IMG/VR virus record: IMGVR_UViG_3300035520_000451
DNA: 25,638 bases
Source: a virus
Taxonomy: Duplodnaviria > Heunggongvirae > Uroviricota > Caudoviricetes
Reading direction: 5' to 3' (one strand)
Shown here one piece after another: positions 2,362-25,638 of the stretch. A program made the translations under genes and the position numbers. The notes beneath the pieces were generated by a model. The model ran no database searches. It was not told where the DNA came from and saw only the letters and a list, made by a program, of their open reading frames with translations. Position 1 is the first letter of the stretch; every line of letters begins with the position of its first letter.

Positions 2362-4287
2362 ATGAATATTGATAAGCAAAATGGTAATGTTGCATTCGCA
2401 GAGGACACTCATACCTACTGGAATGTTAATGATAATGAGAAGTACATATCGGTTACTACTTTAATTCACAGTTTTACTCAACCTTTTGATAAGGAGTTTT
2501 GGAGTGCATATAAAGCTCTTGAAAAATTAATTCCAAAAGAAAGTTGGGCTATAGAAAAGAAATCCTTATTAAACACTAAGAAATTTGATAAGGCTATCTT
2601 AGATTTATATAATATTACAGACAATGATTTCAATTCTGTTCAACAATCTATATTAGATGATTGGGATGAAGAGAATAGAAAATCATGTGAAAGAGGAACA
2701 AAAATTCATGAGGAAATAGAGCATTCTTTTTATAATAAAGCTACTGATATTTCCTTATCGAAATTTGGTATTGGAGGTAAATTTATATGCAAGAAAGATT
2801 ATTCTAAACTAGATTTAGAATATGGAGTTTATCCGGAGTACCTTATATATAGAGAATCTGAAGATGGTATTCTAAGAATAGCCGGACAAGTAGATTTAAT
2901 TATTAAATCAGGTAATGAAATTACAATAGTTGACCACAAAGGATTACCTTTAGATACACCTATATTAACATCTAAAGGTTGGTCAACAATGGGAGATTTA
3001 AAGGTTGGAGATAAAGTATTTGATAAAGATGGAAATTTATGTAATATTACAGTTAAATCAGCTGTACATAATAATCCTTGTTGTAAAATAAAATTTGACA
3101 ATGCAGAAAGTATTGTTGCTGACATTGATCATAGATGGTTAATTTCTTTTAAATTGCAAAATTCTACTAAGAGAAATCCAGATGGATACAAGCATCAAGT
3201 TATGACAACAATGGAATTAAAAACATATTTGGATTCTTTAGAAAAAAGAACTACTACTAATATTCCAAAAATATTAAATGCTAAACCTTTAAATAATAAT
3301 AAAACTAAACTTCCGTTAGATCCATACATATTAGGAGTTTGGTTAGGTGATGGAAGTAAAGATTGCGGAATAATTACACAAGCAAAAGATTCTGCATTAT
3401 GGAATGAAATACAATCTAGAGGATATGAGTTGGGAGAAAATTTAAATCATGATCCAGAAAGGGCTAATGTAGAAATGCGCACCATTTATGGTATTAGAGG
3501 TATATTAAATTATTTAGGAGTGCTTAAAAATAAACATATTCCTGATATATATCTATTAGCTTCTTACGAAGATAGACTTGATCTATTACGTGGTTTAATG
3601 GATACGGATGGGTACTTTCACCCAACTAGGAAAAGATTTGTCATGACAACTTCATTTGATTGGCAAATGAAAGGTATGAAACAATTAGTTTCTTCTTTAG
3701 GATGTAAAGTTTCGGTTTTTAAAGAAATTCATAAATGTGAGGGAAAGGAATTTCCAGGATGGAATATTAATTTTACTACTAATAAATTTAATCCATTTCT
3801 AATTAGAAACACTGAAATAAAAGATATTTCTTTAAAGGATAATAATTCTTTTAGAAATATAGAATCCATAGAATTTGTAGATACTGTTCCTACTCAATGT
3901 ATCGCTGTAGATAGTCCATCTCATACTTATCTTTGCACAGACTCTTTAATAGTAACTCATAATACTAATAAAAAAATTGACCAGAAGTCTGCATATAATG
4001 CTTCTACTAGGTCTACCGTCAAAATGAAGTATCCATTAAATACTTTAGATGATTGTAATTATAATCATTATCAATTACAGTTATCCACATATGCATGGAT
4101 GCTACAGAAAATTAATCCTGATTTCATTATAAAAGATTTAATATTAAATCATTATGATCATAATGGAAAAAATACTTTATATCACTGTGAGTATTTGAAG
4201 AAAGAGGTTGAGAAAATGTTATACTTTTATAAAAAGCAAGTCATATTAAACAAACAAAAGGAAAAACGGAAAAGAATAGAATATTAA
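2362..4287 (+). CDS. PD-(D/E)XK exonuclease-family protein with intein (641-aa precursor, ~300 aa spliced)
   Basis: H.Y...YISVTT, RGTKIH, E...IAGQVDL...IVDHK|TN and HYQLQLSTYA motifs. No TAG codons. Confidence 0.88.
   Translation: MNIDKQNGNVAFAEDTHTYWNVNDNEKYISVTTLIHSFTQPFDKEFWSAYKALEKLIPKESWAIEKKSLLNTKKFDKAILDLYNITDNDFNSVQQSILDDWDEENRKSCERGTKIHEEIEHSFYNKATDISLSKFGIGGKFICKKDYSKLDLEYGVYPEYLIYRESEDGILRIAGQVDLIIKSGNEITIVDHKGLPLDTPILTSKGWSTMGDLKVGDKVFDKDGNLCNITVKSAVHNNPCCKIKFDNAESIVADIDHRWLISFKLQNSTKRNPDGYKHQVMTTMELKTYLDSLEKRTTTNIPKILNAKPLNNNKTKLPLDPYILGVWLGDGSKDCGIITQAKDSALWNEIQSRGYELGENLNHDPERANVEMRTIYGIRGILNYLGVLKNKHIPDIYLLASYEDRLDLLRGLMDTDGYFHPTRKRFVMTTSFDWQMKGMKQLVSSLGCKVSVFKEIHKCEGKEFPGWNINFTTNKFNPFLIRNTEIKDISLKDNNSFRNIESIEFVDTVPTQCIAVDSPSHTYLCTDSLIVTHNTNKKIDQKSAYNASTRSTVKMKYPLNTLDDCNYNHYQLQLSTYAWMLQKINPDFIIKDLILNHYDHNGKNTLYHCEYLKKEVEKMLYFYKKQVILNKQKEKRKRIEY
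2941..3963 (+). mobile_element. Class 3-type intein with LAGLIDADG homing endonuclease, 341 aa
   Basis: Starts GLPLDTPILTSKGW; block B DHRW; block F TQCIAVD; ends IVTHN|T. Endonuclease motifs LGVWLGDG and LRGLMDTDG. Confidence 0.9.
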
Positions 4288-4665: not shown

Positions 4666-5253
4666 ATGTCAAAGAATGTAAGACTCGATTTAACTGAAAA
4701 TGAAAAATTTGCTAGAGAAATGTCTGGGTTGGAATCTACTGCTCAGCATTTTGCTATGGGGCAAGATTTAGATACTTTAATTGCTAAAGAAAAGGCAAAT
4801 AAATTTAATGACCAAGTAGGCGAATATATGGAAAAGATTGATAAACACGCAGAACTACTTAAACAATATACTGAATCTATTAAGGAGAATATGAACTCTG
4901 TAGAAATTAAGCCTATGCTTACTAGAGTTCTTATTAAGCCGTTTGAAATAAATCCTTTCCAACAAATTAAGGTATCTAATTCCGGACTTATTATTGATTC
5001 TGGCGGTCTAGCTCCTGAAGCTTTTTCTAATGATTCAGGTAAGTGGGAAGAACAACAACAGGCAATTGCAGTAGGTACTGTATATGATGTAGGCCCAGAT
5101 TGTAAATATGTAAAAGAAGGAGATGCTGTATTTTATCAAAGAGCTGCAATGGTTCCAGTTCCTTTCTTTAAGCAAGGATTAGTTACAGTCTCAGAGAGTC
5201 AAATAATTGCTGTAGTTAACGAAGGATTAACTGAACGTTTTAAAAATGTGTAA
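4666..5253 (+). CDS. GroES/Cpn10-like co-chaperonin with N-terminal helical extension, 195 aa
   Basis: IKPMLTRVLIKP, SGLII, GTVYDVGP, VKEGDAVFY and ESQIIAVV match the Cpn10 pattern. No TAG. Confidence 0.8.
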   Translation: MSKNVRLDLTENEKFAREMSGLESTAQHFAMGQDLDTLIAKEKANKFNDQVGEYMEKIDKHAELLKQYTESIKENMNSVEIKPMLTRVLIKPFEINPFQQIKVSNSGLIIDSGGLAPEAFSNDSGKWEEQQQAIAVGTVYDVGPDCKYVKEGDAVFYQRAAMVPVPFFKQGLVTVSESQIIAVVNEGLTERFKNV

Positions 5254-6863: not shown

Positions 6864-9800
6864 ATGGAGACAACTAAAAGAAAACGAGGAAGACCACGTA
6901 AAACTTAGCTTCCAGACGAAATTTAGAAAATTGTTGAAGAAGTTAAAGAAAAGGAACAGCACGAATTTCAAGAGGTCATTGAAGAGGCTAAGAAAAGTCT
7001 TGACATGAATAGAAAATGGGATGTAGAATTGAAGGATTCCATAGAGTTCTTTGATTCTACATTATCATATGAACTAACTGGTTATAAACCTATCACTGAT
7101 ACTTAGGGTTTAGATTTTAATCCAGATTGGTTTACAACAGCACGAGACACTTTTATAAGAACTGGAAACTATTGTGAATTTAGACCTAATACTAAAGCTT
7201 ATGCTGATTTTTGGACATAGGAATATATTAATTGTAGAGAAGGATTAACTGTTAATGGTTATACTATTACTGGAGATCATTACTTCTTTTTAAATTACTA
7301 TCAATTAATGGATTTGACTAGCCCCAAAAAAGCTGGCGAAGGTCGTCTTTATGATTTTCCAAGATTCTTTGTTGCTTAGTATGAATTCTTTCACTATTTA
7401 GAAATGTGTAAGCGACTTAAAAAGAATGCAGCATTATTTAAAGCTCGTGGAGTCGGTCAACTAAAGAAAGGCCGACTATAAATTCCGTAAAATCGGTGAA
7501 GACTAAGGTAATTTATTATGTTGACACCGAGGTAAATTAATATGTAATAATATTAATCACCGTAACGCGTAGGTATATTGAACCTAACAATTTAATAATT
7601 AATTAGTAAACTATTTTTAAGTATGGCTAAAGAAAAATTTATAATACTTGATTTTAATAAAAATTATGCTATTTCCAATTATGGAAATGTAATGAATGTA
7701 AATACAAAAAAAATATTATCCCCACAAGATAAAGGATATTTATTTGTAACATTACATAATGTATCTAATACTAGAGGTAATAAAGGATATAGAAAACAAT
7801 ATAGAATTCATAGATTAGTTGCAAAATATTTTATAGAAAATCCGGATAACAAACCTTATGTAAATCATAAGGATGGAAATAAACATAATAATAATGTAGA
7901 TAACTTAGAATGGGTTACTGAATCAGAAAATACTAATCATGCTTATAATACTAAATTAATTCAAACTCAAAAACCTATTAAAGCAACTAATTTAAATGAT
8001 TCTTCTATAATCGAAGTTTTTGAAAGTCTTTCTGAATGTGCTAGATATTTTAATTGTAATAAATCTTATATTCATAGAGCATTGAATAAAACATACGGAA
8101 AAGATATTTATAAAGGATATAAATTTGAATATATTACTTGTTAGAATATAACATAGCAACAAATGTTGTAGGATACTACTCAAAACGCTAAAGAGAGTAA
8201 TAATCCTCCCAAGAGTATGGAACATTCTAGTTAGAATGAAAATGTACGCTGAACTTATAGGAAACTATAAGAACTATAGGATAAAAAGCCTATAGGATAA
8301 CAAAATTGTTTTCGGAGATGGATGCGTCAATTGCTGCTAATAGTTATAATTGTCGTAGAAATTCTGTTAATGTGATAGCAGCCTATTAGGATAATTATGT
8401 AATTAAAACTCTTGATAAGGTTTGGAAAGCTTTAAACTTTCTAAATGATCATACTAATGGAGGTTTCTTTAAATTAAGATAGGTTAGTGATACTTAGTAT
8501 TTAAAGAAGGCTTCTTACTATAAATTAATTAATGGACAGAAAGTAGAATCTGGATGGTTGTCATAGATACAGGGAATAATTGCTGACAAACCTAATAAAA
8601 TTCGTGGCGATCGTACTGATTTGCTTATCTATGAGGAGGGCGGATGCCATGCTCCTGGAACTAAAGTAATTATGTACGATGGATCTATTAAAAAAGTAGA
8701 GGATATTCGTATCGGAGATATTTTAATGGGAAACGACGGTACTCCTAGAAATGTAATTGAATTACATTCTGGAATTGATTAGATGTTTAAATTAATTCCA
8801 AATAATGGGTAGGAACAAATAGTTAATAGTAATCATATTATATATGGTAAATATAGAGATTATTCAAAGAATACCTATTAGGATTTTGAAATAAAAGCAA
8901 AAGATTACTACGAAATGATATAGAAATATCCTAGAAGAAAAGATAATTATAAGCTTATTAAAGCTAATAAAATAACTTTTAAACATTAGGATGTTCCTAT
9001 AGACCCTTATTTATTTGGATTTTGGTTGGGAGATGGTCATAGCGCTGATACTAAATTTACATCCAAAGATTCTGAAATATTAAATTTTTTGTAGAAATTT
9101 GCAGAAAATAATAATTTAAATGTATCATTTAGAGATTGTGATAATAGTATTGGATGTAAACATATTAGGTTTTCTGGAAAAGAAGGCTCTAATAATTGGC
9201 TTAGAATAAAGCTAAAAGAATTAGGAGTATGGGATAATAAATATATTCCAGATTGCTATATTTATAATAGCAGAGAAATTTTATTACAATTATTAGCTGG
9301 ATTAATAGATTCAGACGGCACTTATAATCCAGGTAAACATGAAGTATAGATTACTCAATATGAAGAGCATAAACAAATAATTGAAAAAGCTACTTTTATT
9401 TGCAGAATGTTAGGTATGCGAGTATCTACAGATGTTAGAATATCTAAATAGCGTATTATAAATGGAAAAACTATCAAAGGAGGAGTTAAACAGTATCGTT
9501 TAAAAATTTTATATGGACATAGTGAAATTCCTACAAAAATTGCAAGAAAGCAAACTGAAGAACGTTCTGAAAAATATAAATCCTCTAGAGATCGTTTAGC
9601 ATGTACTTTTAAAATAGAAAAATATAGTATAGGTGAATATTATGGATTTTCCTTAGATGGAAATCAATTATTCCTATTAGAAGATTTTACAGTATGTCAC
9701 AACAGTTGGCCAAATTCAACTAAAGCTTTTATCCAAGGAGATGCTTTAGTGTCTATCCAAGGTTAGAAGTTCGGGATTAAGATTATAGGAGGCACCGGTA

Positions 9801-11361
9801 GATAAATATCTTGAATTCTGCCGCTTAGAAGAGGGATCTTCTTTGAGAAAATCGAGCAAAATCGGAGAAAGCTGGGATGCTAATTCCGAGGTAAATTCCG
9901 AAATTACGAAAGGTTCGGAATCACTGTAGAGCGTAGAGAATGAATAAATATAATTTCTCCAAGAGTGTTCGACACCCAGAACGGGTGAAAAAGTACGCCG
10001 AACTTACATGAAATGAAATGTAAGAAGTATAGATAAAAAGCTATACGATAACAAATTTGGGAGACTCCGGCCCGGCTTTAGAAGGACTTAGAACTATCTA
10101 TGAAAAACCTTTAGGATATGATGTATTGCCCTTTAAACATAACTATACAACTACTGGAGAATATGCTTTAACTGGATATTTTATTCCTGCTTTCACTATT
10201 GTAAATGTGGAAGGTTATATGGATAGCAGAGGTTATACTAATCCAGAAAAAGGACGGGAATATTATGATAATGAAAGAGCAAAACTAGCTAATGATCCAA
10301 AAGCATTGGTTATTTATGCTGCTGAGTATTGCTATACTGCTGAAGAGGGATTCTCTTAGGAAGGTGATAATAAATTTAATAAAGTAAATATAGCAGAACA
10401 AATAACACAAGTTAGTATTCTTAAAAGAGGCCCCAAGATTGAAACTGGAAATCTTGAATACATCTTTAAGGAAGGTTAGCATATACAAGAAAATATAACT
10501 GGATTCTAGTGGAAACCCAATCCCGCTGGAAAAATAAAAATATTAGAACATCCTTTATGGACTCTGGAAGCTGAAACAGATCCAGAAACAGGAGAAGTAA
10601 TAAGATAGAAAGTATCAGAAATGAGAGGTTTATATGTAATAGGTATTGACGGTATTGATATTGGCGCGAGTCAAACTTCTGAATATACTAAAGATCCATC
10701 TGATTTCTGTTTAGTTGTTAAGAAAAGAGTATATGGTTTGTAGGATCCTCAATACGTGGCTATATATAAGGATAGACCAAACGATATACGAGATGCTTAT
10801 AAGACAGCTATTAAATTAGCTTAGTATTATAATGCAGTAATTAACATTGAAGCAACTAGAATGAGCCTAGTCAATTGGGCTAGAGATCATAAATATTTAT
10901 CTTATTTTATTAAACGTCCTAGAGCTACTTTAACTGATATAGCTCGAGGAAAATCTAATCAATATGGTACTCCTGCAACATAGGCAATTATTGCACATCA
11001 AACTGACTTAATTGCAGACTTTGTTAATGATTATTGCCATACTATATGGTTCCCAGAAATACTTGATGAACTTAATCGTTATAATGATTAGAATAAACGT
11101 AAGTTCGATATTGTAGCAGCTTTAGGTATGGCAGAACTTGCCGACGAAGAATTAACTGGTACTACTCCAAAGCAAGTAGAAAAGGAACAAGAAGAATGGT
11201 ATGATATTGGATATTATATTGATGAAAATGGCTATAAAAGAAGGGGAAGAATCCCTAGAAATAGATAGCAGATACTAGTAACTAATAAATTTAATGAATA
11301 TGATGACTACGCTGTCCATAGAACAAGCGATCCTAGAAGCCGTTAGGGATATTTATCATAA
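6864..11361 (+). CDS. terL: Terminase large subunit; join(6864..7457, 8309..9799, 10060..11361); 1128-aa precursor, ~775 aa after intein removal
   Basis: Splicing restores Walker A KARGVG|FSE, Walker B LLIYEEGG|SW and the coupling motif GGTG|GDSG. C-terminal nuclease motifs YVIGIDGID, NIEAT and KFDIVAA. About 28 in-frame TAG. Confidence 0.93.
7458..8308 (+). mobile_element. Group I intron 1 in terL (851 nt, ORF-containing)
   Basis: Exon ends in U paired to G in P1 (AGUCGGU/GCCGACU). P3 UUCCGUA/UAUGGAA; P7 ACGCGUA/UACGCU; P8 and two P9 hairpins; terminal G. Removal restores the frame and Walker A. Confidence 0.9.
7623..8252 (+). CDS. Intron-encoded NUMOD4-HNH-NUMOD1-type homing endonuclease (173 aa to TAG 8144; 209 aa to TGA 8252 if TAG=Gln)
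   Basis: YAISNYGNV; HRLVA..FI.NP..KPYVNHKDGNKHNNNVDNLEWVT..EN..HA; C-terminal FESLSECARYF helix-turn-helix. Confidence 0.9.
8645..9703 (+). mobile_element. Class 1 intein with LAGLIDADG endonuclease in TerL, 353 aa
   Basis: Starts CHAPGTKVIMYDG and ends YYGFSLDGNQLFLLEDFTVCHN|S. Motifs FGFWLGDG and LAGLIDSDG; 8 TAG. Confidence 0.92.
9800..10059 (+). mobile_element. Group I intron 2 in terL (260 nt, ORF-less)
   Basis: P1 CGGU|AGA/UCUGCCG with U.G; P3 UCGAGCA/UGUUCGA; P7 GAGCGUA/UACGCC; P8 CACCC/GGGUG; terminal G. Colinear with the intron 1 core. Confidence 0.9.
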
Positions 11362-11611
11362 GGAGTATGTGGGTAAATTAAAAGTGAATAAATTACCTAA
11401 AGGATACTAGTTACTGATGTGGTTTAATAAACCTGAACATCCGATAGCTATATCTGCGGAAATGGATGCTCAGCATTTTATTAAATTTATCAAAAAGGAA
11501 CTAAGAGAGCGACATTTTGAATTTGTATCTTATTTTACAGGATACAAATATGACCCAGAAGATTTATGTAACCAAAATATAAGTAATTCATGTAGTTGTA
11601 ATGACAAATGA
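11300..11611 (+). CDS. Hypothetical protein between terL and portal, ~103 aa
   Basis: MMTTLSIEQAILEAVRDIYHKEYVGKLKV...; 1 TAG; overlaps the terL 3' end by 62 nt. The start could be 11294, 11300 or 11303. Confidence 0.75.
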
Positions 11612-13787
11612 CGAATTAATTGATAAAACGGACAAAGCAATAACTGAACTTGTTTATCCTAAATGGGATTTGTAGAAGGCTTACAATTACTATAATGGGG
11701 TACGAGATGAAGAATAGTTTAGATATTTAGAAGATAATTATGGGATAGGAAATCCTACATCATTAGAATTTACTCCATTAATTAAAAAGCACATAGATGC
11801 TTTAATTGGAGAGTATCTTGGAACCCCAATCATTCCAAAGGTTTACTGTAAAGATTCTGAGACATTAAATAATATTGAAAGAGACAAGCAATTAAAGATT
11901 TTACAGGAGCTTCATACTTATCTATATAACCGTTTAAAAAATGATATTCTCAATTTTAAAAACGGTAAAGATACTACAGACACTCTAATTGAACAAAACT
12001 TAAATAGAATAGTGGAAGATATAAACACTAATTTTATTTCCGAGTATGAAATTGCTTCTTAGAATGTAATAGAATATATAATGCAATCTCGTGATACTGA
12101 TATGCTTACAGTTCTTAGAGATTTATTGCTTGATCTTTTAATTACAGGTTATACTTTTTATAGAGTAATACCTACTGTAGAAAATAACAATGTTAGAATT
12201 GAGGCACTTAGTCCCTTAAATGTTTTCCCAGATAGAAATTTTGAATCTCCTTATATTAAGAATTCATACAGAGTTGTGGTGAGAAAGTGGATGAATAAAA
12301 CATAGATTTTAAATCTCTATGGTAGGGAGTTATCAAAAGAAGATATAGAACTTATTAAAGATAAGTGGGAAACCGTTTATGATGAAGCTACTTACTATGT
12401 TAGAAATGTAGCAAATCATGGAATCCCCTCTACTGATGGTATCAAAGCTGGAAAAGAATTAATTGTGCCAGGTTATCCATCAAATACTTCTGGAAAGTAT
12501 CATGATCTTATTCCTGTATATGAAGTAGAATGGATTGAAACTGATGAAGACTTTGTGATGCAGCGTTATGAAACCATTAGAATTGGGGAAAGTGTCTATA
12601 TTTTAAAAGGTAAAAACGAGAAAGTAACAAGAAGTCGGTCTAATCCTTCTTATTGTGGTTTATCGGTTAATGGAGTATATTTTTTAAATAGAGGATCGGA
12701 ACCATATTCTTTAGTTTTAGCTTGCACTCATTTATAGGATAAATACGATATATTACATTTCTATAGAGATAATTTAATTGCTAATAGTGGCTCTATTGGT
12801 GATTTTATTGATGTCTCTATGCTTCCTAATTTCTTAGGACATGATACAGCCGAAAAGCTGGAAAAATATATAGCATATAAAAAGACTGGTATCGCGCCGA
12901 TTGATACTTCTTAGGAAGGTAGATTAGGTTCTGGGCAAGCTCCTATTAATACTATATTTAATGGTTATGATGATACTGTAAAAGTATAGGCTATTCAAGC
13001 TATACAATTAGCAATAGACCAAGTGGAACAAGTGGCTTCTTCTATTACTGGAGTATTTAGAGAACGATTAAATGGAATTGAACAAAAAGATGCTGTAACT
13101 AATGTTAAAATAGGATAGAATAATTCATTTATAATTACTAAACAATATTATCATTAGATGGATTTAATTGTAAATGAAATGCTTCTAGATTGTTTAAATC
13201 TTGCCAAAGTTGTTTGGAAGAAGGGTTTAACTGGAACTTTAATATTAGGAGAAAAGTATCAAAAAGTATTTACAGCATTACCCGAATACTTTACAGTAAC
13301 GGATCATGATATACGAATTACTACGAGTAGCGATGTAATAAAGGATTTGGAATATATTAAATCTATTCTTCCAGACTTTATTAAAAATGGATCTATGGCT
13401 CCAGATGTTATATTTGAAGCTTTAACTTGTAAAAGTATTACTGATATTAAATTGCTTGTTAAGAAAGCAATGCAAAAACAAAAAGATGAAAATAATCAAT
13501 TATAGCAATAGTAGAAATAGATTGAGGAACTTACTCAATAGATGAAACAAGCTCAATCACAACTTTCAAAAGCCCAAAATAAAATTGAACAACTCAACCA
13601 AGAAAAATTACAATTAGAATCTCAGAAATTACAAATGGAGAATAAGGTTGAGTGGTATAAAGCACAAACCGATAGACAATATAAAGAGGCTATGATTGAT
13701 GAAGCTAAACGTAGAACACAGGTTGAAATCTTGCAATTGCATGATGGAAATCCATATAATGATAAATTAAGACAAGTTGATTTATGA
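11601..13787 (+). CDS. Portal protein, 728 aa
   Basis: Four track ORFs lie in one frame joined by TAG. AYNYYNG, PLIKKHIDALIGE, ITGVFRERLNGI and a Gln-rich C-terminal coiled coil; position after terL. Confidence 0.85.
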
Positions 13788-16408: not shown

Positions 16409-16873
16409 ATGGCATCTAAAGAGATAAAAGTTTATGGGGAATTAGTATCTCAAACTTTATCTGGAAAAACAGTAGATACCGATAATGTAATAGACGAAAC
16501 TATGAATATGAATCAGACAGAGATAAACTAGGCTCTGTCTGATTCTATTGACGATTTAACAAATTCTGTTGATAATCTGAAAAGTTTTGGATCTAATTTA
16601 CAAGTTCAATTATATACTGATGTAGGTAATTTCCTAGTATATCCAGACGAGGAAGTAACTATCTATGCAGCAGTATATTCACTTGGAGAAGATATTACAG
16701 ATTCTTTACCTATAACTTGTTTTAGATGGGAAAGGGTATCTAAGGATACAGAGGGAGATACAATTTGGAATAACTAGAGTGAACATAACAATACTAAATC
16801 TGTTGTGGTAACGGCAGATGAAATTTAGAAGAAAGCATAGTTTATATGCTATGTAAAACCAATAGAAAGCTAA
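16409..16873 (+). CDS. Tail-fibre-associated protein with C-terminal Ig-like domain, 154 aa
   Basis: 4 TAG. Short coiled coil, then FRWERVSKD..GD..WN...VT...AQFICYV. Confidence 0.7.
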
Positions 16874-16874
16874 T

Positions 16875-17051
16875 ATGGCAGAAGATTGTTTAAAAGGATA
16901 GATTACACTAGTGAATGTTTAGAATTTTGAGGAATATGTAACTACAGACGAACTTACTACTTCATTAAATAAGAAATTTGTAGTTATTTCTGAAGATGAA
17001 TACAATTCGATAGATCCTGATGCAGACACATTTTATTTTATAAAGAAATGA
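16875..17051 (+). CDS. Small fibre adaptor-like protein, 58 aa
   Basis: MAEDCLKG(Q)ITLVNV(Q)N...VISEDEYNSIDPDADTFYFIKK; abuts both neighbours. Confidence 0.65.
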
Positions 17052-17197
17052 GAATAGCAATAGGAGATATATAGTGTAAGGCTTTATATTTAGGAAATAT
17101 ACTAATATGGGCTATTACCGAAGAAGGGGACTAGTACTTAAATGGTGAGTGGATAGATTCCTTAGTTTGGGAAGATGCCGAAACATGGATTGAATAA
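17048..17197 (+). CDS. Small Trp-rich adaptor-like protein, 49 aa
   Basis: ATGA overlap; MRIAIGDI(Q)CKALYLGNILIW...WIDSLVWEDAETWIE. Confidence 0.65.
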
Positions 17198-17199
17198 AA

Positions 17200-20100
17200 A
17201 TGGCAGTTAATTTTTTAGATACTTGGGATGGGGAGAAGCTCTCAGATGTAAGAGCTTTCATTCAAAAACAATTACAAAATGGCTTTGTTAATATTAGCAG
17301 CAGTACTCTTAATGGTAAAGTAGTGCTTACTTTAACTAAAGCCGATGGAACTATTTAGAAAGTAGAATTTACAGCAGCGGAAGATGAAGCAAGTTCTGGT
17401 TATAAGTGTGACTTTAGAATGCAGAAAAAACAATCTGTATATGGTTCAGGCACAGCTATAACCTTTTCATATACTCTTTCACAGACGGATAGTGGAGAGG
17501 ACGTTATTGGTATTGCACCAACAATAACTTTTACGGCATATACAACAGATAGTTTGTTAAATCCTGTTAAATAGTTGTGGACAACTACAATAGTCGATGC
17601 CTCTCAAAACAAAAGTGTTACTATTCCAGCAACTACTTTTGAAAATGTATCAGGTGCAATCCTAATTAAAGGTACTTGTGAAGTAAATTATCAAGGACAA
17701 GAAGTATCAATTAGTCGTTAGATTACTATTAATATAGCAACCTGCGAAATAGACTTTGGATCTTCCTTTGATTTATCTAAGCAAGTACGTGGATATGCTA
17801 CTAATGGTACCTTATCTGAAGTGTTTGTAGATTATGTGGGAACTGAAGATGGGGAGCTGTTACTATACGTTGACGGAGTACTTAGAAGTACTTTCGAAGC
17901 TACTTCTGGTTTAACTACAGAAATCAATTATGATTTATCTGATGCAGGTTTGAACGGTGAGGGGGCTTTAAGTACTGGATTACATTGCGCATAGATTATT
18001 GCTAAAATGTAGGCAGGTACCGATATAGATACTGGTGACCCAATTTATATTTATTCTAAAAGTTTATTATTTGATTTCTACAAAGGATTAACAAATAACC
18101 ACGTTGGAATTAAAATGAATATTGATTCCTCTGATGTTATTGAAGATCCTATAAAATCTTTAACTCTAAATACTCAACAGTATGTAACATCTGTTATAGA
18201 ATATGCAGCTTCTGCGTATGACTCTAGTAGTAAAGATTATAAAGAACTTACAACAGTTGGTATTTCTAAAGATACTACAAATGTAAGTAATTTAGCAGTA
18301 GGAAGTAAAGAAACTTTTAAATATTCTTTTAGAGATACCGCTATTTCTAAATATGTTCTTACTTTTAGCGTTATCGCTCAAAGTAGAATTATAAATATTG
18401 CAGTTGTAAAAAATTCATCTGGAGTTTCAGTTGCTTCAGGAGCTGCAATTGATATTTCAGCAGCAGGTAGAAATAATTAGGAAAATACTTCTACTATTGA
18501 TGTGTGGGAATTTTCAGATAATTCTGGCAAAACTTATACTGGAACTCTAACAAATTTCTTGCATACTGTTGACGATGTTGATATAGATGGCTGGGATGGA
18601 GAAAGTTTAAAATTTAGAGGATCTTCATAGTTAGATCTTCCTTATACTCCTTTTGGTTCATTTAATAAAAATACTGGATATTATATTGAATTTAATATAA
18701 AAGTTGATACAGTTTTAGATGAAGACTAGTATATTTTATCTTGTCTAAATTCAGACAATAAAGGCGGTTTTTATTTAAAAGCAGAAGAGGCAGGTATCAT
18801 AACTACAAATGGTACTACAGTGTTTACACCTATTGCAGCGGGAAATAATTATAATATATCATTTATGATTAAATCCTACACTGGAACAGATAATGGCAGT
18901 ACTGTAACTACAATATTACTTGAATTATTTGTTAATGGTATTAGAAGTGCTGTAGAAACATTTAGTACTAGTGATAGTTTTGATTCTACTGCTACAATTA
19001 CTATGAATGGTTTGGGGGCTATTTGGTACTTTTATGGTATGCGTGTTTACAATTCAACACTCACTCCTTTAGCTATTTATAATAATTATTTAACTACATT
19101 ATTAGACTCGGACTAGATTGTTTCATTGGCAGATGAAAATGATATATTAAATACTGCTAAGAGTGCTGTTAGCTTTGATAAATTAATAAGTAAAGGTAAG
19201 AATGTGTTAGTTGTTGAAACCGGAGATGGAGATGAGAAATGTGTACTTGATAGTGCAGATTCTCTTGGAAAAGTAGTAGATGATTCTTGGGATGGTACTC
19301 CTTTAGAAACTTAGACTATTACTACTAAAACACTTTTCTTAAATCCTTCTTCTAAAAAGAAAGCTAATTTCTTAGTTAAGAGTTTAACATATTATCACAA
19401 TGGCAAACTTACTGATGATAGGTCATTTAAATGTGGGCCGACATTAATGCAAGTTCAAGGTACTTCTAGTACCTATTATTCTAGAAAGAATTACGATATA
19501 TTCTTTACTGGTTAGAAGTACGATAAATCTAATTCTGTCGCAAAATGGACTAGTTATTTTGATCCCAGTGTTGGATCTGATGCAGCTATACAAAATAGAA
19601 ATACTACTAACCCATTATATTCTATGGGTACAAACGATCAAGGAGTTCCTTGTTTGTGTCTAAAAGCTGACTACTCAGATTCTTCTAGTTTGCACAATAC
19701 AGTAGTTACAAAACTTATTAATGATGTATGGTTTGGGCTTGGTTCTAAATATAGAACTCCACCACAATATAATAATGATTCAGAATATCCAGAAGTAAGA
19801 GTTGGTATTGATGGACACCCAATAGATGTGTTTGTTAAAGATGAAAATGGAGATTATACTTACATTGGTAAATACAACATGAATAATGAGAAAAAAGATT
19901 CTCATCATGTATTTGGATTTACTGGTACGGTAGGAAATACAGGAGTAGGTTCTGCTATCTGTATTGAGTTTCTAGAAAATAATAGAACTGCCACTCTTTT
20001 TAATGCAGATTCTTCATTTAATTGGACAACCTGCAGTGATACTGATGACGAATCAGGCGAGGCAATTCCTCAACTTGAATTTCGTTATCCTTCTTACGAC

Positions 20101-22227
20101 TGGGCTGATGCCCCAGATAATTTAAGATCCGCAGCTAAGCGTCCATTTTTATGGGTTAAGAAATGTTACGATTCTTGGAAAGCTTCCTATAGTGAAGCAA
20201 CCGGACAATATACAGATTCTACATTTGTATAGGAATTAACATAGTACTTTAATCCTTATAATTTGTGTGCTTGGTATTTATATACAGATTATTTTATGGC
20301 TGTAGACCAACGCTCTAAGAATATGATGTTAGCAAGTTGGGGAGCAACAGCTGATTCTGGAATATGGTATTTTTTACCATACGATTCAGATACAATTTTA
20401 GCCGTAACTAATGATGGTTGGTTAGTATTGCCTTGGGATTCTGATGAGAATACAAAGAACCCAAAGGATTCTACATAGTATGCTTTCATGGGGCATGATA
20501 GTAATTTATGGGAACTTGTGAGATTTTTCTTATACGATGATACTTATACTAGCAATTCCGAATACGGCTTAGAGGGATGTAACTTACAAACAGTTGCATA
20601 GACTTTACGAGATGAAACTAGTGGTAATACATTATTTAATTTAAAGACTATTAATGCTAGGTTTGCTGAATCTAGAGATTATTGGTCTGATATGATATTT
20701 AACTTTGATGCTGATACTAAATACATTGAACCTTTAACTTATCAAACAGGGCGTGGTTCTAAATCTGATTTTGCATAGTTTGTACAAGGTGCTCGTGATG
20801 CTCATAGAGATTGGCTAATTGATAAACGATTTAGATTACTTGACTCTAAATATGCTGCAGGATATTTCGTATCAGACGAGAAGAACATGAAGTTATCTAA
20901 GGAATAGGGCGTTGCAGCATCAATGAAAGTAACTGCCGCTACTACCGCATATGTATAGTTGATTGCTAATACTACTACAGTTGCTAAAAAGAAATTGGAA
21001 GCTGGAGTAGAAACCGAATTGGATATAACTAATTTTGCATTAGGAAGTAATGACCCCTTTAAATTATAGGGATTTTCAGCTGCTGAATCTATAGATTTTA
21101 ATACTGTTTCAGACTATATCTATAGTGATATATTATTTCCATCTACCTATATTAAACTAAAGACTCTAAAAATAAATGCTACTGATAATACAGCTCTAAG
21201 CACTAATATTGGTGATATAGTAAAACCTCTTACTAATTTAAGAACTTTAGAGCTTTCGGGGCTAAGCAATGCTACTGGAACATTAGATTTATCAAATAAC
21301 ATAATGCTAGAATCAGTTACAGTAGATTGTTCTAAATTATAGGGTATTATAATGCCTTATTCATATTTAAATATAAAGAAGTTTAATGTTGGAAATTTAA
21401 ATGAATTTGTTCCATGGAAATTTTGGGACGAATTAAATGATTATTATTATAAATTAAGAGGTAGTTGTATATTTGTTGCAGAATTAGTTGATAGTGATGC
21501 AACTTATGGATTACATGTGGATAATTCAGACACTTGTTACTATTGTTCTGGTAAATATGTCTTTTATGAATTTCCAAAACCTTCCTTAGGTGGATACTAT
21601 ATAAATGCTCCTGTTGGCTACTTTGGAGCTTCGTATGACGGTAATGCAAGAAATCCTAAAAATTTAAAGAAAATTATTTACGCTAAAGTAGATACTAGAT
21701 TTTACACAGGATCTTGGAAAGCTTCTGCAATGTTCAGTTATTTTTTAGCTAATTGTATTAATCTAGAAAGTGTTAATACTACTGGATTTAGAATTGATCC
21801 TTAGGATAATACTAATAGTCAAGGATATGGAGGTTCTAGAATACTCGAAAATTGTCAAAATCTTACTTCAATTGATCTTAGTTTTATTAAAACCGGATTA
21901 ACAGCAGGTACCGGTTCTTGGACATTATCAAGTGATTGTCTATATGCTAGCTCTCGCCCACAAAATTTAACTTATGTAAGATATGGTTCGGGATGGTTCT
22001 AGCAAACTGTTGAAAACACTTAGAGATCTTATATTTTCACATATGGAACTCAAATGAATGCTTAGCATTATATAGATTTAGCAGAAGATATACCCGATAT
22101 AAGTAATTTAGATATTAATTCCGATTATAAGATATTAAGTATAGGATCAAATTATAATGATGCCACTAAATTTCCAGATGCTATTAAAGAAAAGATTCAA
22201 AATAAAGGTTGGAATGTAATCCAATAA
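17200..22227 (+). CDS. Large multidomain protein, 1675 aa: Ig-like + LamG-like + CotH-kinase-like + LRR
   Basis: Six track ORFs lie in one frame with no TAA/TGA until 22225. QGTSS..Y.RKNY, LKADYSDSS..HN, YIGKYNMN, DQRSKNMM and PYDSDT motifs; LRR units; C-terminal NKGWNV. Confidence 0.8.
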
Positions 22228-22253
22228 TTAATTTTTAAAATTTTTAATTTAAT

Positions 22254-23471
22254 ATGTCTAAATCAATTTCTAAAGGTCATCTTACCATTGTAGATCTTAA
22301 CGATGGTAGAGTAATGAATTTATCTATTAGATCTAATATTTATCAACAAATTTATTGTGCAGATAACTCATAGCCATATACTCCAAATTTCGAAACTTAC
22401 CCATTAGTAATTTAGCCTATTCTTACTATGACTGGAGTTGAGAATACCAACTTACTAACTTCTGCTAATGCTTCCGTAGAATATAAAGTATTAGCTCAGG
22501 GTTCTACCACAGCTTAGGATTTGGAAAGTTATTTTGGGAAAGATGGTTATGCTAAAGCGGCTACTACAGATGGTCAAAAATTAACTATTAAGAAAAATCT
22601 AACAGTAGATTATATTATAATTTAGGTAACTACATCATATGTAGAAAGTGGCATAACTTATTCTGCATATAATGAAGTATAGATAACGAAATTGGTTTAG
22701 GGTGTAAATACTGTAAATATATTACCTGAAACTCCTTACGGAGATTCTTTCTACACTAATATGCCACAAATTGATGGAGATACTAAGATTTGTATGGTAG
22801 CCCATTTAATGCGGGGTGGAGTTGTAGATGATTCCAATATTGAATGGGAATGGTCTAAAATGGGAGATGATGGAAATTGGAGTGTTTTGAAAACTACTGA
22901 TTATGCTGACTCTACTGGTAATGAATATTTAACATCTACCGGAGCTGGTTCTCAACACCCATCTTCCACTGCCCACAGTTCTGGATGTTGTACATTATGG
23001 GTTAAGCCCGATGCAATTGATAATTTTGAACTATATAAGTGTACAATATATGATTTGGATACTGCTACAGGAGCTTCTGACAGATCTAAATTTATAAATA
23101 CTGTATTTACCATTTCTGATAGAACTGATCCTTATAAAGTAGATATTACTGACGATACTCCAGACAAGATTACTTTAACTCAAGATACTATAACAGTTAA
23201 ATTACGCATGTTATAGAATGATGAAGAAATTGAAAATTATTTCCACAAAGTTGGAGTTGGAGTAACTTGGTCTTTATATACTAATGTTACGGATTCTGAT
23301 AATAATACTACTTATGCTCTCAATACTGATTGGGGAACTAAAGGATTTAAAACCACTTCTAACACTGAAGCTACAGTAGCTAGTGGTAATTACTGTAATG
23401 TTATGACCATAAGCAAGAAAGAGATTAATAAACGTGCAAATCTTGTTTTTGAAGTATTCGAAGGAGCTTAA
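22254..23471 (+). CDS. Tail protein with about three Ig-like domains, 405 aa
   Basis: 7 TAG. SKGHLTIVDLNDG...QQIY...YTPNF...PL; WEWSK; YKCTI...FTISDRTDPY. Confidence 0.72.
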
Positions 23472-23473
23472 TT

Positions 23474-25638
23474 ATGGATACTAAGACTATTGCGAAAGGT
23501 AGTCACACTTTTATATATGTTGAAAACGGAGCCGATAGTGTAGCTGTCGGCCTCCGTAATCAACAATTATTAGTCGCTATGACAAGTGACGGAAAAATTG
23601 TAAACTCTGAAACCTATGAAAATCAGCTTTTCTTATATAAAGGAGGTGTTGTTCAAGAACTTACAAATCTTGTTATACAATATTATGATACGAGTGCTAT
23701 CGTAGGATATTCAAACATCTCTACTGAAGTAACTAATATTGCAAAAGGATTATTCTCCGTTACATTAACAGAAGGTTATCCCATACTTAATGATAAAGCT
23801 CTTATTAAATTGACAGCAAAGAGTACTGATTGCCCTGATGGAGTTAGTATTGATTTTACTATTCAAGGAGTTAGAGCTGGCTCTGATGGAGCCGATGGTA
23901 CTGATGGAACTAATGGTATGGATATAACTGTCTATGAATTATTACCATCAACGGAATCTGACTTATATTTCAGTAGAAATGATGATGATTCATTTGTAGA
24001 AGAATACCAAGATATATATTGTGGATATTGTAAAAGAACAGGAAGCGATGTAACAAATTATCCTGGTAATATTAAAGCTAACTTGTATCATAATACGTCA
24101 GAAGGAGGTACAGCACCTTATAACATATTCTACAAATATATTGCCTATGATGATACAGAATACAAATATGCTTGGGCAAAAGACCTAGAGAAAAATGGGG
24201 TAGGAGTGTTGCGTATATCTTCAGATACTACTTATAAGGGAGTATTATTTATACTTGCCAATACTTCTGGCATTTCTTTAATATCTGATGATAATATAAT
24301 AGACCGTGAAGAAATTCTTTTCATAAAAGCACCGAAAAAGGGCGAAAAAGGAGACGATGCTATACAATACACTATTATACCATCAACTACTAGTATAAGA
24401 AGAAAAAGCAATGGGCAATTAGAAACAAAAACAATTAGTTTTCAATATTACTACATAAAGGGTAATGGTTCCCCAGTATACAATGAAAGTGCTGACTCTG
24501 AGTCTTTATTTTTCATATATAGTTTCAATGATAGTGAAACAAGTACCACAGTTCAAGTTAATAAAGAAGTACAACTTGATGATAGTGTTACCAAAATAAA
24601 ATGTTCACTAATAAACACTACAGGAAAAGTTTATGCTACTTGTACTATCAATGTTATTGAAGATATACAAGATGATAATATAGAAGAAATTCTTCAAGAT
24701 GTAGTCGCTAAGCAAATAGATAATCAAATTTCTATTTGGTTTACTGATTATGAACCTACACTTGAGAATGAACCTGCTTCTGAATGGACAAGTCCAGCAT
24801 TGCAACAAGACCATCTAGAAGATGTTTGTTTTGATAGAAGTACTGGAAAAGCATATTCTTATAGTGTTGATAGTGATGATAATTTCTCATGGCAAGAAAT
24901 AACTGATGCTGAAACATTAAAGGCACTTTCAAACGCAGCAACAGCACAAGCTACTGCTGATGGTAAAGCAACTATATTCTTAGGCAATGTTCCTTATGTA
25001 CCATATAACAAAGGAGATATTTGGATAGCAGATAGTAATAGTGTTCGTAGTGGTGCTACTTATGGTAGTGGAGCAGATGCTAAAGTTGTTTCTAATGGAC
25101 AAGTTCTAATTTCTGAAAATAGCAGAAGTTCAAAGGATTCTTTGAATTTTGGGGATTGGAATGATTATTTATCAGATTATTATCGTGATACAGATTTTAT
25201 CAATGATGTAATAGGTAATGCCACTAAAGGAAATAATGTATTTTACTTTGATAGTAATTTTAAATTATACACCGATGTTACTTTTAGTGGAAGTACTCCA
25301 TCTTTATCAGGCACAGAAATAACAGAATACTCTAAAGGCGATGTTGCTATTTATATCGGCAGTAGTAATTTTATATATACTTTTGGCAGTGTTCAATATA
25401 CTATACAAGCAACAACAGTAGTAGGACAAGATTCTAGTGGTAATGTTAAAAAGAATAGAAATTATCCTAGATTTTTCTGCATAAAAAGCGGTACAACATC
25501 AAAGATTTCAAACAATAATTGGGCAGACTGGATTGCTGATATGTCTTTGAAATCTCGCATTGATAATGAAGTAATGTTTCAAAATGCTTTATTTGATAAG
25601 TATGGGCATTCAATCATAGAACAAACTGCTAATAAAAT
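23474..25638 (+). CDS. Tail fibre protein, partial (>721 aa, runs off the window)
   Basis: No stop of any kind to the window end. Short G-X-Y collagen-like linkers (GSDGADGTDGTNG, GEKGDD). QID..I..WF...EPT..NEPA.EW...H..D...AQATADGK...PY.KGDIW domain, typical of gut phage fibres. Confidence 0.8.
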   Translation, partial: MDTKTIAKGSHTFIYVENGADSVAVGLRNQQLLVAMTSDGKIVNSETYENQLFLYKGGVVQELTNLVIQYYDTSAIVGYSNISTEVTNIAKGLFSVTLTEGYPILNDKALIKLTAKSTDCPDGVSIDFTIQGVRAGSDGADGTDGTNGMDITVYELLPSTESDLYFSRNDDDSFVEEYQDIYCGYCKRTGSDVTNYPGNIKANLYHNTSEGGTAPYNIFYKYIAYDDTEYKYAWAKDLEKNGVGVLRISSDTTYKGVLFILANTSGISLISDDNIIDREEILFIKAPKKGEKGDDAIQYTIIPSTTSIRRKSNGQLETKTISFQYYYIKGNGSPVYNESADSESLFFIYSFNDSETSTTVQVNKEVQLDDSVTKIKCSLINTTGKVYATCTINVIEDIQDDNIEEILQDVVAKQIDNQISIWFTDYEPTLENEPASEWTSPALQQDHLEDVCFDRSTGKAYSYSVDSDDNFSWQEITDAETLKALSNAATAQATADGKATIFLGNVPYVPYNKGDIWIADSNSVRSGATYGSGADAKVVSNGQVLISENSRSSKDSLNFGDWNDYLSDYYRDTDFINDVIGNATKGNNVFYFDSNFKLYTDVTFSGSTPSLSGTEITEYSKGDVAIYIGSSNFIYTFGSVQYTIQATTVVGQDSSGNVKKNRNYPRFFCIKSGTTSKISNNNWADWIADMSLKSRIDNEVMFQNALFDKYGHSIIEQTANK

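What the first reader, a model, noticed from the sequence alone, without database searches (positions are those of the whole stretch)
16409..23560. Fibre proteins appear chained by donor-strand complementation across gene boundaries
Seen: three genes start with the same strand (16875 CLKG(Q)ITLVNV(Q)N, 22254 ISKGHLTIVDLNDG, 23474 IAKGSHTFIYVENG). Two genes end in matching, apparently unfinished Ig domains (16409 VTADEI(Q)KKA(Q)FICYV-stop, 22254 ISKKEINKRANLVFEV-stop), each directly upstream of a gene with that strand. Internal domains carry both parts contiguously (VKPDAIDNFELYKCTI...FTISDRTD; IKCSL...ATCTINVIED). Inference: each N-terminal strand completes the previous protein's last Ig fold, as in pili. 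With the 58- and 49-aa adaptors this would be a plug-and-socket system for swapping or branching receptor-binding tips.
Basis: inference. Interest (0 to 1): 0.75.

Follow-up and report, generated by a model that had tools for sequence, protein, structure and literature searches.

The report
Split Ig-domain joints between phage fibre proteins
In this stop-codon-recoded phage, and in many phages of Gram-positive bacteria, consecutive tail-fibre genes are cut inside an immunoglobulin-like domain, so each protein most likely snaps onto the previous one by supplying its missing last strand; this is a predicted, not yet demonstrated, joint at which receptor-binding modules are exchanged.

Summary
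Read with TAG=Gln, the window encodes two proteins (P0001, 16409-16873; P0005, 22254-23471) whose last Ig-like domain stops 4-5 residues after strand F. Three proteins (P0002, P0005, P0006) begin with a G-x-h-T-h-h-x-h-x-[DN] strand.

The same socket-then-plug arrangement occurred at all 17 split gene junctions I examined, in the window and eight unrelated loci. The P0005 family (phrog_3267) nearly always starts "GQITIVDLNDG" and ends "ATFxCEV" plus 1-5 residues.

Three natural single-chain versions (Bacillus phage Hakuna gp99, P0111, P0102) carry socket, a 7-13-residue loop and plug contiguously. AlphaFold2 folds one of them as a complete Ig domain, with the plug as strand G hairpinned to F (pLDDT about 96).

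Translational fusion is excluded as the general mechanism. Trans strand complementation is therefore the best explanation (about 0.7), but no heteromer could be modelled.

Protein identity to the closest relative jumps from 35% to 76% exactly at the P0005/P0006 joint, and P0006 has no TAG codons. This indicates module exchange there.

Nothing supports the 49-aa protein as an adaptor. Precedents are pilus donor-strand complementation and the Tuc2009 BppU/BppA composite Ig domain.

This scan has noted similar split-Ig fibre joints before on other DNA.

The parts
16409..16873 (+). P0001, 154 aa. An N-terminal region of about 60 aa aligns with the stretch that precedes the socket domain inside Hakuna gp99. 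The C-terminal Ig-like socket domain (about 16595-16873) ends 5 residues after strand F (AQFICYV, 16835-16855).
   Evidence: phrog_2929 and C-termini of five other tail PHROGs; socket HMM E 4.5e-14; 39% identity to the L004 162-aa homologue.
16875..17051 (+). P0002, 58 aa. Plug strand KGQITLVNVQN (16893-16925) plus a Phage_tail_C tip motif (16974-17048). It starts 1 nt after the P0001 stop, in another frame.
   Evidence: PF24243, 23.8 bits against a cut-off of 23.7; plug HMM 7.4 bits, second best in the window.
17048..17197 (+). P0003, 49 aa. Overlaps the P0002 stop (ATGA). It has no plug, no socket and no family hit.
17200..22227 (+). P0004, 1675 aa. A giant fibre or receptor-binding candidate without plug or socket. 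It lies between the socket gene P0001 and the adaptor P0005 and is absent at this position in the closest relative, L004.
   Evidence: CotH 17 bits, below cut-off; phrog_14959, E 2.6e-132; relatives in Bacteroides phages.
22254..23471 (+). P0005, 405 aa. An adaptor of the phrog_3267 family with an N-terminal plug KGHLTIVDLND (22272-22304) and three Ig-like domains. The internal domain is complete, with its own G strand TVFTISDRTD (23100-23129). The terminal socket domain (23130-23471) ends 4 residues after strand F (ANLVFEV, 23436-23456).
   Evidence: phrog_3267 E 4e-35, 2-401 against 2-366 of 369; AF2 pLDDT 86.4; domain 2 has 8 strands, the terminal domain 7.
23474..25636 (+). P0006, at least 721 aa and cut by the window end. 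A distal fibre with a diverged N-terminal plug KGSHTFIYVEN (23495-23527). It has a strong ribosome-binding site (GAAGGAG), starts 2 nt after the P0005 stop in another frame, and has no TAG codons.
   Evidence: L004 homologue starts SRGQVTISCVENGADS; 76% identity over residues 6-288; Gln codons TAG/CAA/CAG = 0/25/1.

Best explanation
The tail-fibre proteins of this phage are joined head to tail by split immunoglobulin-like domains. P0001 and P0005 end in an Ig-like domain that has strands A to F but no G strand (the socket). P0002, P0005 and P0006 begin, a few residues after the start methionine, with a strand of the form G-x-h-T-h-h-x-h-x-[DN] (the plug).

After separate translation, the plug of one protein inserts next to strand F of the partner's terminal domain and completes its beta-sandwich. 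The proteins become one continuous string of Ig beads without a covalent link.

The likely chain here is P0001 (anchor, socket), then P0005 (adaptor, plug and socket), then P0006 (distal fibre, plug). P0002 is a second plug-bearing protein that could occupy P0001 sockets and perhaps tether the P0003/P0004 module.

Because the joint is conserved and sits at the gene boundary, whole downstream modules can be replaced by recombination and still dock.

Shown: the motifs, their conservation, the natural fusions, and the fold of a fusion. Inferred: insertion in trans, the pairing of particular plugs with particular sockets, and any branching.
For: 1) Socket identity. Profiles of the family align to NCAM Ig1 and antibody light-chain domains. 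'sitVtksdvtkkAtfvCe' lies on 'SLTISSMEAEDAATYYCQ', that is strand E, the turn and strand F, and the proteins end there.

2) Fold of P0005. AF2 (pLDDT 86.4) gives an internal domain with 8 strands including G (280-289). The terminal domain has 7 strands and ends with F (395-403). The N-terminal plug is a strand of lower confidence (60-72) behind a linker below 50.

3) Conservation. In 105 representatives of the P0005 family, 74 of 104 have the plug pattern within the first 25 residues. The alignment consensus is GQITIVDLNDG at the N-terminus and ATFxCEVxxx-stop at the C-terminus.

4) Context. At 17 of 17 split junctions, the upstream gene ends in a socket and the downstream gene starts with a plug. 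These are in the window and in loci L001, L003, L004 and L006-L010, which include Bacillus phage Chewbecca and gut phage NatCom_17901.

5) Natural fusions. Hakuna gp99, P0111 (a Tal-adaptor fusion) and P0102 carry socket, a 7-13-residue loop and plug in one chain. The concatenated split pairs align to them collinearly.

6) Fold of a fusion. AF2 of P0111:118-233 (pLDDT 91.1, pTM 0.82) places loop and plug as strand 97-109, hairpinned to F (83-94), at pLDDT about 96. The MSA had only two rows that could cover those columns. The model aligns with complete single Ig domains up to residues 110-116: LILRB4 D1 Z 8.0, RAGE C2 Z 8.0, RB49 Hoc Z 8.7.

7) Separate polypeptides. Spacers are 1-120 nt, all three frame offsets occur, all stop codons occur, and each downstream gene has its own start codon. 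GAAGGAG precedes P0006.

8) Module exchange at the joint. Identity to L004 is 39% (P0001) and 35% (P0005), then 76% (P0006). TAG codons go from 7 to 0.
Against: - No heteromeric model or experiment was possible, so insertion in trans is inferred from cis fusions.
- Coordinates of the models were not available. I could not see what the plug of P0005 pairs with in the monomer model, nor whether the terminal domain exposes a groove.
- The folded construct gave the plug nothing else to pair with.
- P0006's plug is too diverged for the plug HMM, and P0002's score is marginal.
- Some sockets carry longer tails after strand F (L004 homologue of P0001: 11 residues, YGVINSEIQIG; L007: 10 residues). These might partly cover the edge in cis.
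- There are three plugs for two sockets in the window, and the rest of the genome is not available.
- Two junctions in other loci (L001 TGA plus 15 nt, L006 TAG plus 12 nt) are in frame with no further stop in between. A single stop readthrough could fuse them.
Confidence: 0.7

Rival explanations
1. The N-terminal motif is a conserved docking peptide and the C-terminal domain a conserved docking platform, but they do not form one Ig domain in trans. The plug would bind another surface, for instance by forming an inter-chain beta-structure with the two other copies in a trimer or by edge augmentation elsewhere. The terminal domain would be a stable 7-stranded variant.
For: The monomer model of P0005 keeps a well-predicted terminal domain without a G strand (pLDDT 79-92). 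Phage receptor-binding proteins commonly use conserved N-terminal peptides or domains for anchoring (general knowledge; also stated in PMC9128512). Trans insertion was not modelled.
Against: In three natural fusions the plug follows strand F after only 7-13 residues, and AF2 makes it the G strand at pLDDT about 96. Internal domains of the same subfamily always have this strand. Homology to canonical Ig domains places the chain end exactly before strand G.
Confidence: 0.17
2. The domain is completed in cis. Programmed frameshifting or stop-codon readthrough, plausible in a recoded phage, produces fusion proteins across the gene boundaries, so the apparent split is only a translational device.
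For: The phage reassigns TAG. The window junctions are very tight (1 and 2 nt). Two junctions in other loci are in frame, so a single stop readthrough would fuse them (L001 TGA plus 15 nt; L006 TAG plus 12 nt).
Against: The window junctions end in TAA and need +1 and -1/+2 shifts respectively. Across the 17 junctions the spacers reach 120 nt, all three frame offsets occur, many read-through frames contain further stops, and every downstream gene keeps its own ATG or GTG 3-9 codons before the plug. Several have AGGAG-type sites. The family ends at the same point in about 100 divergent representatives.
Confidence: 0.05
3. The gene splits are assembly or sequencing artefacts or decaying pseudogenes, and the motif similarity reflects only common ancestry of Ig repeats.
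For: The window comes from an uncultured, recoded genome whose gene calls fail under the standard code.
Against: The same split occurs in isolated, fully sequenced phages (Chewbecca, NatCom_17901) and in independent metagenomes, at the same loop, with intact ORFs on both sides.
Confidence: 0.02

Closest known systems
Donor-strand complementation/exchange in chaperone-usher pili (Fim, Pap, Caf1, Saf); established knowledge
   Same: An Ig-like subunit lacks its C-terminal G strand. The missing strand is supplied by an N-terminal extension of the next subunit, which gives a non-covalent but very stable head-to-tail fibre. In the fusion model the donated strand runs antiparallel to F, as it does after exchange in pili.
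   Different: No sequence relation to pilins was found (Pfam gave nothing). There is no periplasmic chaperone or usher, and assembly would take place in the cytoplasm. The chain is a short, defined series of different proteins (anchor, adaptor, fibre), not a homopolymer. How the open socket is kept soluble before docking is unknown.
Lactococcus phage Tuc2009 baseplate tripod: the BppU C-terminal beta-hairpin completes a sheet of BppA domain 2, and the composite domain resembles a titin Ig domain (PMC4742702, read)
   Same: It is a solved case in which two different baseplate proteins of a Gram-positive siphophage together build one Ig-like beta-sandwich. This joint attaches an accessory host-binding module.
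   Different: In Tuc2009 the donor is a two-strand C-terminal hairpin and the acceptor is also a C-terminal domain. Here the donor is a single N-terminal strand and the acceptor is a C-terminal domain of the preceding gene product, giving a head-to-tail chain. No sequence similarity was detected: PDB profile searches returned only NCAM and antibody-type domains. Tuc2009 is a single case; here the joint is a conserved, repeated standard.
Anchor-branch systems of multi-RBP phages (Klebsiella KP32-type, with a T4gp10-like branching domain and a conserved N-terminal peptide on the second RBP; CBA120/G7C tailspike adaptors); from my own knowledge, not read here
   Same: A short conserved N-terminal peptide on an exchangeable receptor-binding protein docks onto a conserved platform on another tail protein. 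This allows modular exchange and branching.
   Different: The platform here is an incomplete Ig domain, not a T4gp10-like or XD domain, and no such family was detected. The proposed mechanism is completion of a fold, not surface docking.
Strand exchange between contractile sheath subunits of phage tails and eCIS (for example PMC13266070)
   Same: Tail components are linked by donating terminal beta-strands to neighbouring subunits.
   Different: In sheaths the exchange augments a sheet between identical subunits of a helical polymer. It does not complete an Ig domain between different fibre proteins.

Membership tests
phrog_3267 'tail protein' (the adaptor family of P0005) | End-to-end similarity to the family profile | tested here: met
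   P0005 residues 2-401 match profile positions 2-366 of 369, E 4e-35. There are 105 representatives at E up to 1e-3, and most full-length hits are about 330-460 aa.
Immunoglobulin-like beta-sandwich (I-set/C2-like) | Conserved Trp on strand C and the hydrophobic-x-Cys pattern on strand F, detectable against solved Ig domains | tested here: met
   The A1 profile hits NCAM1 Ig1 at E 9e-4. The A3 profile hits antibody light chains and CD4 at about 1e-3, with alignments over strands C to F. These E-values are weak but consistent.
Immunoglobulin-like beta-sandwich (I-set/C2-like) | Complete sandwich including strand G when socket and plug are in one chain | tested here: met
   AF2 of P0111:118-233 gives pLDDT 91.1, with strands 83-94 and 97-109 forming a hairpin. 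VIA-align gives Z 8-9 to complete single Ig domains spanning model residues about 10 to 110-116. Z of 8-9 is only modestly above background for this aligner.
Chaperone-usher pilus donor-strand complementation | Subunit Ig fold lacking its own G strand | tested here: met
   The terminal domains of P0001, P0005 and about 70 relatives end 1-5 residues after strand F. The AF2 terminal domain has 7 strands.
Chaperone-usher pilus donor-strand complementation | N-terminal extension of the next subunit inserted in trans into the groove | not testable with these tools
The evidence is indirect: cis fusions.
Chaperone-usher pilus donor-strand complementation | Dedicated chaperone and usher; homology to pilins | tested here: not met
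   No pilin, chaperone or usher family was found in any window protein scanned. The genes lie in a phage structural module after the portal. It therefore works like donor-strand complementation but is not a member of that system.
Tuc2009 BppU/BppA composite domain | Sequence or profile similarity to BppU C-terminal extension or BppA domain 2 | tested here: inconclusive
   PDB profile searches with A1 and A3 did not list Tuc2009 chains among the hits shown. Absence from a list is not proof.
Anchor-branch RBP systems (T4gp10-like domain) | Presence of a T4gp10-like branching domain | tested here: inconclusive
   No such Pfam or PHROG hit was found in P0001-P0007. No structural comparison was done.
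PF24243 Phage_tail_C (tail tip domain) | Score at or above the Pfam gathering threshold | tested here: met
   P0002 residues 33-57 score 23.8 bits against a cut-off of 23.7, E 2.8e-5. This is borderline.
Programmed translational frameshift fusion (as in tail chaperone G/GT) | Conserved frame relation and overlap between the two ORFs | tested here: not met
   Frame offsets 0/1/2 occur 6/9/2 times. Spacers are 1-120 nt and downstream genes have their own start codons.

The most novel reading that the evidence does not exclude
The socket/plug pair is a true trans donor-strand joint that serves as a portable coupling standard of Gram-positive phage tails (Tal or anchor, then adaptor, then fibre). 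In this phage one socket type (P0001) is contested by two different plugs, P0002 with the P0003/P0004 giant module and P0005 carrying P0006. One virion, or a population of virions, would then display alternative or branched receptor-binding arms. The joint would also be the recombination boundary at which arms are exchanged, even between phages with different genetic codes.
Probability: 0.3. Interest if true: 0.8.

Novelty: new variant of a known kind. Interest (0 to 1): 0.62.

Why it matters
How receptor-binding proteins are fastened to the tail tip is poorly known for phages of Gram-positive bacteria, and it limits rational host-range work.

A joint that can be read from sequence would help in three ways. 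The signature is a socket ending just after strand F and a next gene starting with GQITIVDLND-like residues.
- It would let annotators order fibre proteins into chains from sequence alone.
- It would explain why these genes are so often mis-annotated (in the records seen here the Tal-like and large downstream partners were labelled 'minor head protein', and adaptor copies 'platelet endothelial cell adhesion molecule' or hypothetical).
- It would mark where natural module exchange happens. Here the fibre gene is 76% identical to that of a standard-code phage, while its neighbours are 35-39% identical.

It would also extend pilus-type fold complementation to virus tails and give a second, more general example beside the Tuc2009 BppU/BppA composite domain.

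Tried and rejected
- **Standard-code reading.** It leaves the region fragmented.
- **crAss-like origin.** I assumed this at first from the TAG recoding. It was rejected because the relatives of the joint proteins are Firmicutes phages.
- **Word-indexed homologue searches with P0005 and P0001.** They found nothing, and a viral-contig scan with P0005 found no relative. The exhaustive HMMER search was needed.
- **Direct PDB sequence searches.** Only noise.
- **Foldseek of the whole P0005 model.** Only generic tandem-Ig matches.
- **Combined MSA of N- and C-terminal fragments (A2).** It was misaligned and discarded.
- **Whole genome.** Not held, so plugs and sockets outside the window could not be counted.
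- **Model coordinates.** Not exposed, so contacts of the P0005 plug could not be read.
- **Literature.** Searches for donor-strand, strand complementation or exchange together with phage tail or fibre returned no description of this joint. Papers on phage NF5, on lambda-like spikes and on Deep-Purple were read and do not describe it.
- **Frameshift or readthrough fusion.** Considered and rejected as the general mechanism.
- **Four-letter-codon fusion of the window's own pairs.** I considered folding one, but the fold tool mostly turns such input away and natural fusions were available, so I did not try it.


Full report
**Genetic code and gene map**

Under the standard code the window is a litter of short ORFs. 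Reading TAG as a sense codon raises the summed length of ORFs of 100 aa or more from 3645 to 7986 aa. It also yields an unbroken series of + strand structural genes:
- a large terminase in pieces, interrupted by an HNH gene and another ORF
- a portal gene (11601-13787)
- two genes of unknown role (one is P0007, 650 aa, which the first listing suggested is Ig-repeat rich)
- the six genes of the finding: P0001 16409-16873, P0002 16875-17051, P0003 17048-17197, P0004 17200-22227, P0005 22254-23471, and P0006 23474 to the window end

The one exception is that the C-termini run 5 and 4 residues beyond FICYV and LVFEV.
- A pattern for the strand matches only these three gene starts in the six-frame translation, with 0 to 0.05 matches expected in shuffles. 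The pattern was partly derived from them.
- An HMM of the terminal domain built only from non-window proteins hits exactly the C-termini of P0001 and P0005 (E 4.5e-14 and 3.4e-13) and nothing else.
- An HMM of the N-terminal strand built from non-window proteins ranks P0005 first (19.7 bits) and P0002 second (7.4 bits, E 0.026). It misses P0006.
- P0006's strand is a diverged copy. Its 76%-identical homologue in locus L004 begins SRGQVTISCVENGADS, against IAKGSHTFIYVENGADS.

**What the proteins are**

P0005 matches PHROG 3267 ('tail protein') from end to end (E 4e-35). The C-terminal domain of P0001 matches the extreme C-termini of five tail PHROGs and an internal stretch of phrog_2929, 'tail fiber protein'.

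The relatives are phages of Firmicutes, not crAss-like phages: Bacillus Herelleviridae and Joanripponvirinae, and gut Clostridia phages of the Heliusvirales. No Pfam family covers P0005 or the socket domain.

An exhaustive HMMER search gave 105 representatives, and most full-length hits are about 330-460 aa.
- 74 of 104 have the plug pattern within the first 25 residues.
- The alignment consensus begins MAxxAxGQITIVDLNDG and ends TGxxxTVxxxDVxxxATFxCEVxxx-stop.

**Where the chain ends within the fold**

Profiles of the family align with solved Ig-superfamily domains (NCAM Ig1 at E 9e-4; antibody light chains and CD4 at about 1e-3). The family's 'YtW' lies on strand C. Its 'sitVtksdvtkkAtfvCe' lies on 'SLTISSMEAEDAATYYCQ', that is strand E, the E-F turn and strand F. 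The proteins therefore stop just where an Ig domain still needs strand G.

AlphaFold2 of P0005 with a 68-sequence alignment (mean pLDDT 86.4) gives three Ig-like domains.
- The internal domain has eight strands.
- The terminal one has seven strands and ends with strand F (395-403).
- The N-terminal plug is predicted as a strand, but at pLDDT 60-72 behind a linker below 50.

Coordinates are not exposed, so I cannot say what that strand pairs with in the monomer model.

**The arrangement is conserved at gene boundaries**

I examined eight further loci: NatCom_17901, Bacillus phage Chewbecca and six metagenomic contigs.
- The gene upstream of the adaptor ends in a socket. Where recognisable it is the Tal-like protein that follows the tape measure and Dit.
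- The adaptor starts with a plug and ends in a socket.
- The next gene, of 155 to 1696 aa, starts with a plug.

Counting the two in the window, this holds at 17 of 17 split junctions.

In L004, the closest relative and a standard-code phage, the order is P0001 homologue, adaptor, P0006 homologue, with nothing in between. P0002-P0004 are therefore an insertion in the window's lineage. The ancestral partner of P0005's plug is most likely the P0001 socket.

**Natural fusions**

Three proteins carry socket, loop and plug in one chain:
- Hakuna gp99: ...RATFFCDY-KNPPVAT-GSVTIANIQD...
- P0111, the C-terminal part of a Tal-adaptor fusion in L006: ...RATFICTV-SYQFGGKTVNSE-AQITIVDLTD...
- P0102: ...RGALVCEI-YQGLNLIAR-GQISIVELYDG...

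Concatenated split pairs from the window and from two phages align to them collinearly. The chain break always falls in the 7-15-residue loop between F and the plug.

**Folding a fusion**

I folded only the socket domain, loop and plug of P0111 (residues 118-233), using an alignment of 75 socket domains in which only two rows could cover the plug columns.

The result was pLDDT 91.1 and pTM 0.82. Strand F (83-94) is followed after two residues by a strand at 97-109, which contains the loop and AQITIVD, at pLDDT about 96. Nothing else is present in the construct, so this strand must pair with the socket domain.

The model aligns with complete single Ig domains out to residues 110-116: LILRB4 D1 chain residues 2-95, Z 8.0; RAGE C2, Z 8.0; FCRLA Ig-C2, Z 7.8; phage RB49 Hoc domain 1, Z 8.7 at 21% identity. 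Such Z values are only modestly above this aligner's background. They do show that the plug takes the place of the last strand.

**Rivals**

Translational fusion cannot be general.
- The window junctions end in TAA and would need shifts in opposite directions.
- Over all junctions the spacers are 1-120 nt and all three frame offsets occur (6, 9 and 2 times).
- Many read-through frames hit further stops.
- Every downstream gene keeps its own start codon 3-9 codons before the plug, and P0006 has GAAGGAG.
- Two junctions elsewhere could be fused by a single readthrough, which I note but do not weigh heavily.

An artefact is excluded by conservation in isolated phages.

The serious rival is that plug and socket are docking elements that bind in another way than fold completion. 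The short F-to-plug loops in fusions and the confident G-strand placement speak against it, but only a heteromeric structure can settle it.

**Module exchange at the joint**

Against L004, P0001 is 39% identical and P0005 35%. P0006 is 76% identical over residues 6-288 and also similar over much of the rest. Gln codons (TAG/CAA/CAG) are 7/6/1 in P0005 and 0/25/1 in P0006.

The fibre gene was thus acquired recently, probably from a standard-code phage, with a breakpoint at or next to the joint. The plug itself is the most diverged part of that otherwise 76%-identical N-terminal stretch of P0006. This could reflect adaptation to the resident socket (inference).

**The small proteins**

P0002 is a minimal plug-bearing protein. 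It has the plug, a short linker and a 25-residue Phage_tail_C motif at threshold (23.8 against 23.7 bits). Its plug resembles P0005's more than P0006's does, so both may target P0001's socket (inference).

P0003 has no plug, no socket and no family hit. Only its tight coupling to P0002 and P0004 (an ATGA overlap and a 2-nt spacer) hints at a shared complex.

P0004 has neither plug nor socket, and its relatives are in Bacteroides phages.

**Comparison with what is known**

The mechanism works like donor-strand complementation of chaperone-usher pili, but there is no homology to pilins and no chaperone or usher.

A solved phage precedent exists for the principle. The geometry differs: there a hairpin goes from C-terminus to C-terminal domain, here a single N-terminal strand makes a head-to-tail chain. 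It is also a single case.

Conserved N-terminal docking peptides on exchangeable RBPs are known from Klebsiella and CBA120-type phages (my own knowledge). Strand exchange is known between sheath subunits.

My literature searches found no description of this joint. This scan has recorded similar split-Ig fibre joints in other genomes, including one in a Bacillus-type phage that sounds like the same kind of joint. I did not test those.

**Verdict**

The core interpretation is well supported by indirect evidence but not demonstrated, and the adaptor and branching details remain unproven. It is a new variant of a known kind of mechanism, of practical interest for ordering fibre proteins into chains and for understanding modular host-range evolution in phages of Gram-positive bacteria.

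Noticed in passing
window 23474-25636: P0006 has no TAG codon among 26 Gln codons (0 TAG, 25 CAA, 1 CAG), while all neighbouring late genes use TAG for about half of theirs. It is 76% identical to the fibre of standard-code phage L004, whereas the two upstream proteins are 35-39% identical. This points to a recent import with a breakpoint at the joint.
   Followed up: yes
window 6864-11361: The large terminase gene is in pieces. phrog_6681 positions 77-189 lie at 6864-7481 and positions 343-736 at 10057-11361. Between them are an HNH endonuclease ORF (7623-8252) and a 499-aa ORF whose best PHROG hits are other 'terminase large subunit' families, with a weaker DnaC-like helicase-loader hit. Earlier notes read this as introns plus an intein.
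   Followed up: partly
window 17200-22227: P0004 (1675 aa) matches phrog_14959 strongly, and its closest phage relatives are Bacteroides phages, unlike the Firmicutes-phage relatives of the joint proteins. The CotH Pfam hit is weak (17 bits, below the 23.8 cut-off). The gene has no plug or socket, so how it is attached is open.
   Followed up: partly
L004 7493-7981 and L007 2-319: Some sockets carry longer tails after strand F (YGVINSEIQIG, 11 residues; PITSLTTINQ, 10 residues). These might transiently cover the open edge in cis, in the manner of a built-in chaperone strand. Not examined.
   Followed up: no
L001 7080-7096 and L006 8745-8758: At two junctions in other phages the downstream gene is in frame with the upstream one behind a single stop (TGA plus 15 nt; TAG plus 12 nt), with no further stop. 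Occasional readthrough could make a covalent fusion alongside the split products.
   Followed up: no
window 16835-16925 and 23436-23527: The gene break sits at the same place in the Ig fold as the V/J boundary of antibody genes: after the Y-x-C of strand F and before the G strand, whose G-Q-x-T-h-h start resembles the J-segment G-x-G-T-x-h-T-V. This is an analogy only.
   Followed up: no
window 2362-4287 and 4666-5253: Two further genes have no in-frame TAG within an otherwise recoded operon: a 641-aa protein with exonuclease-like and ATPase hits, and a GroES-like protein.
   Followed up: no
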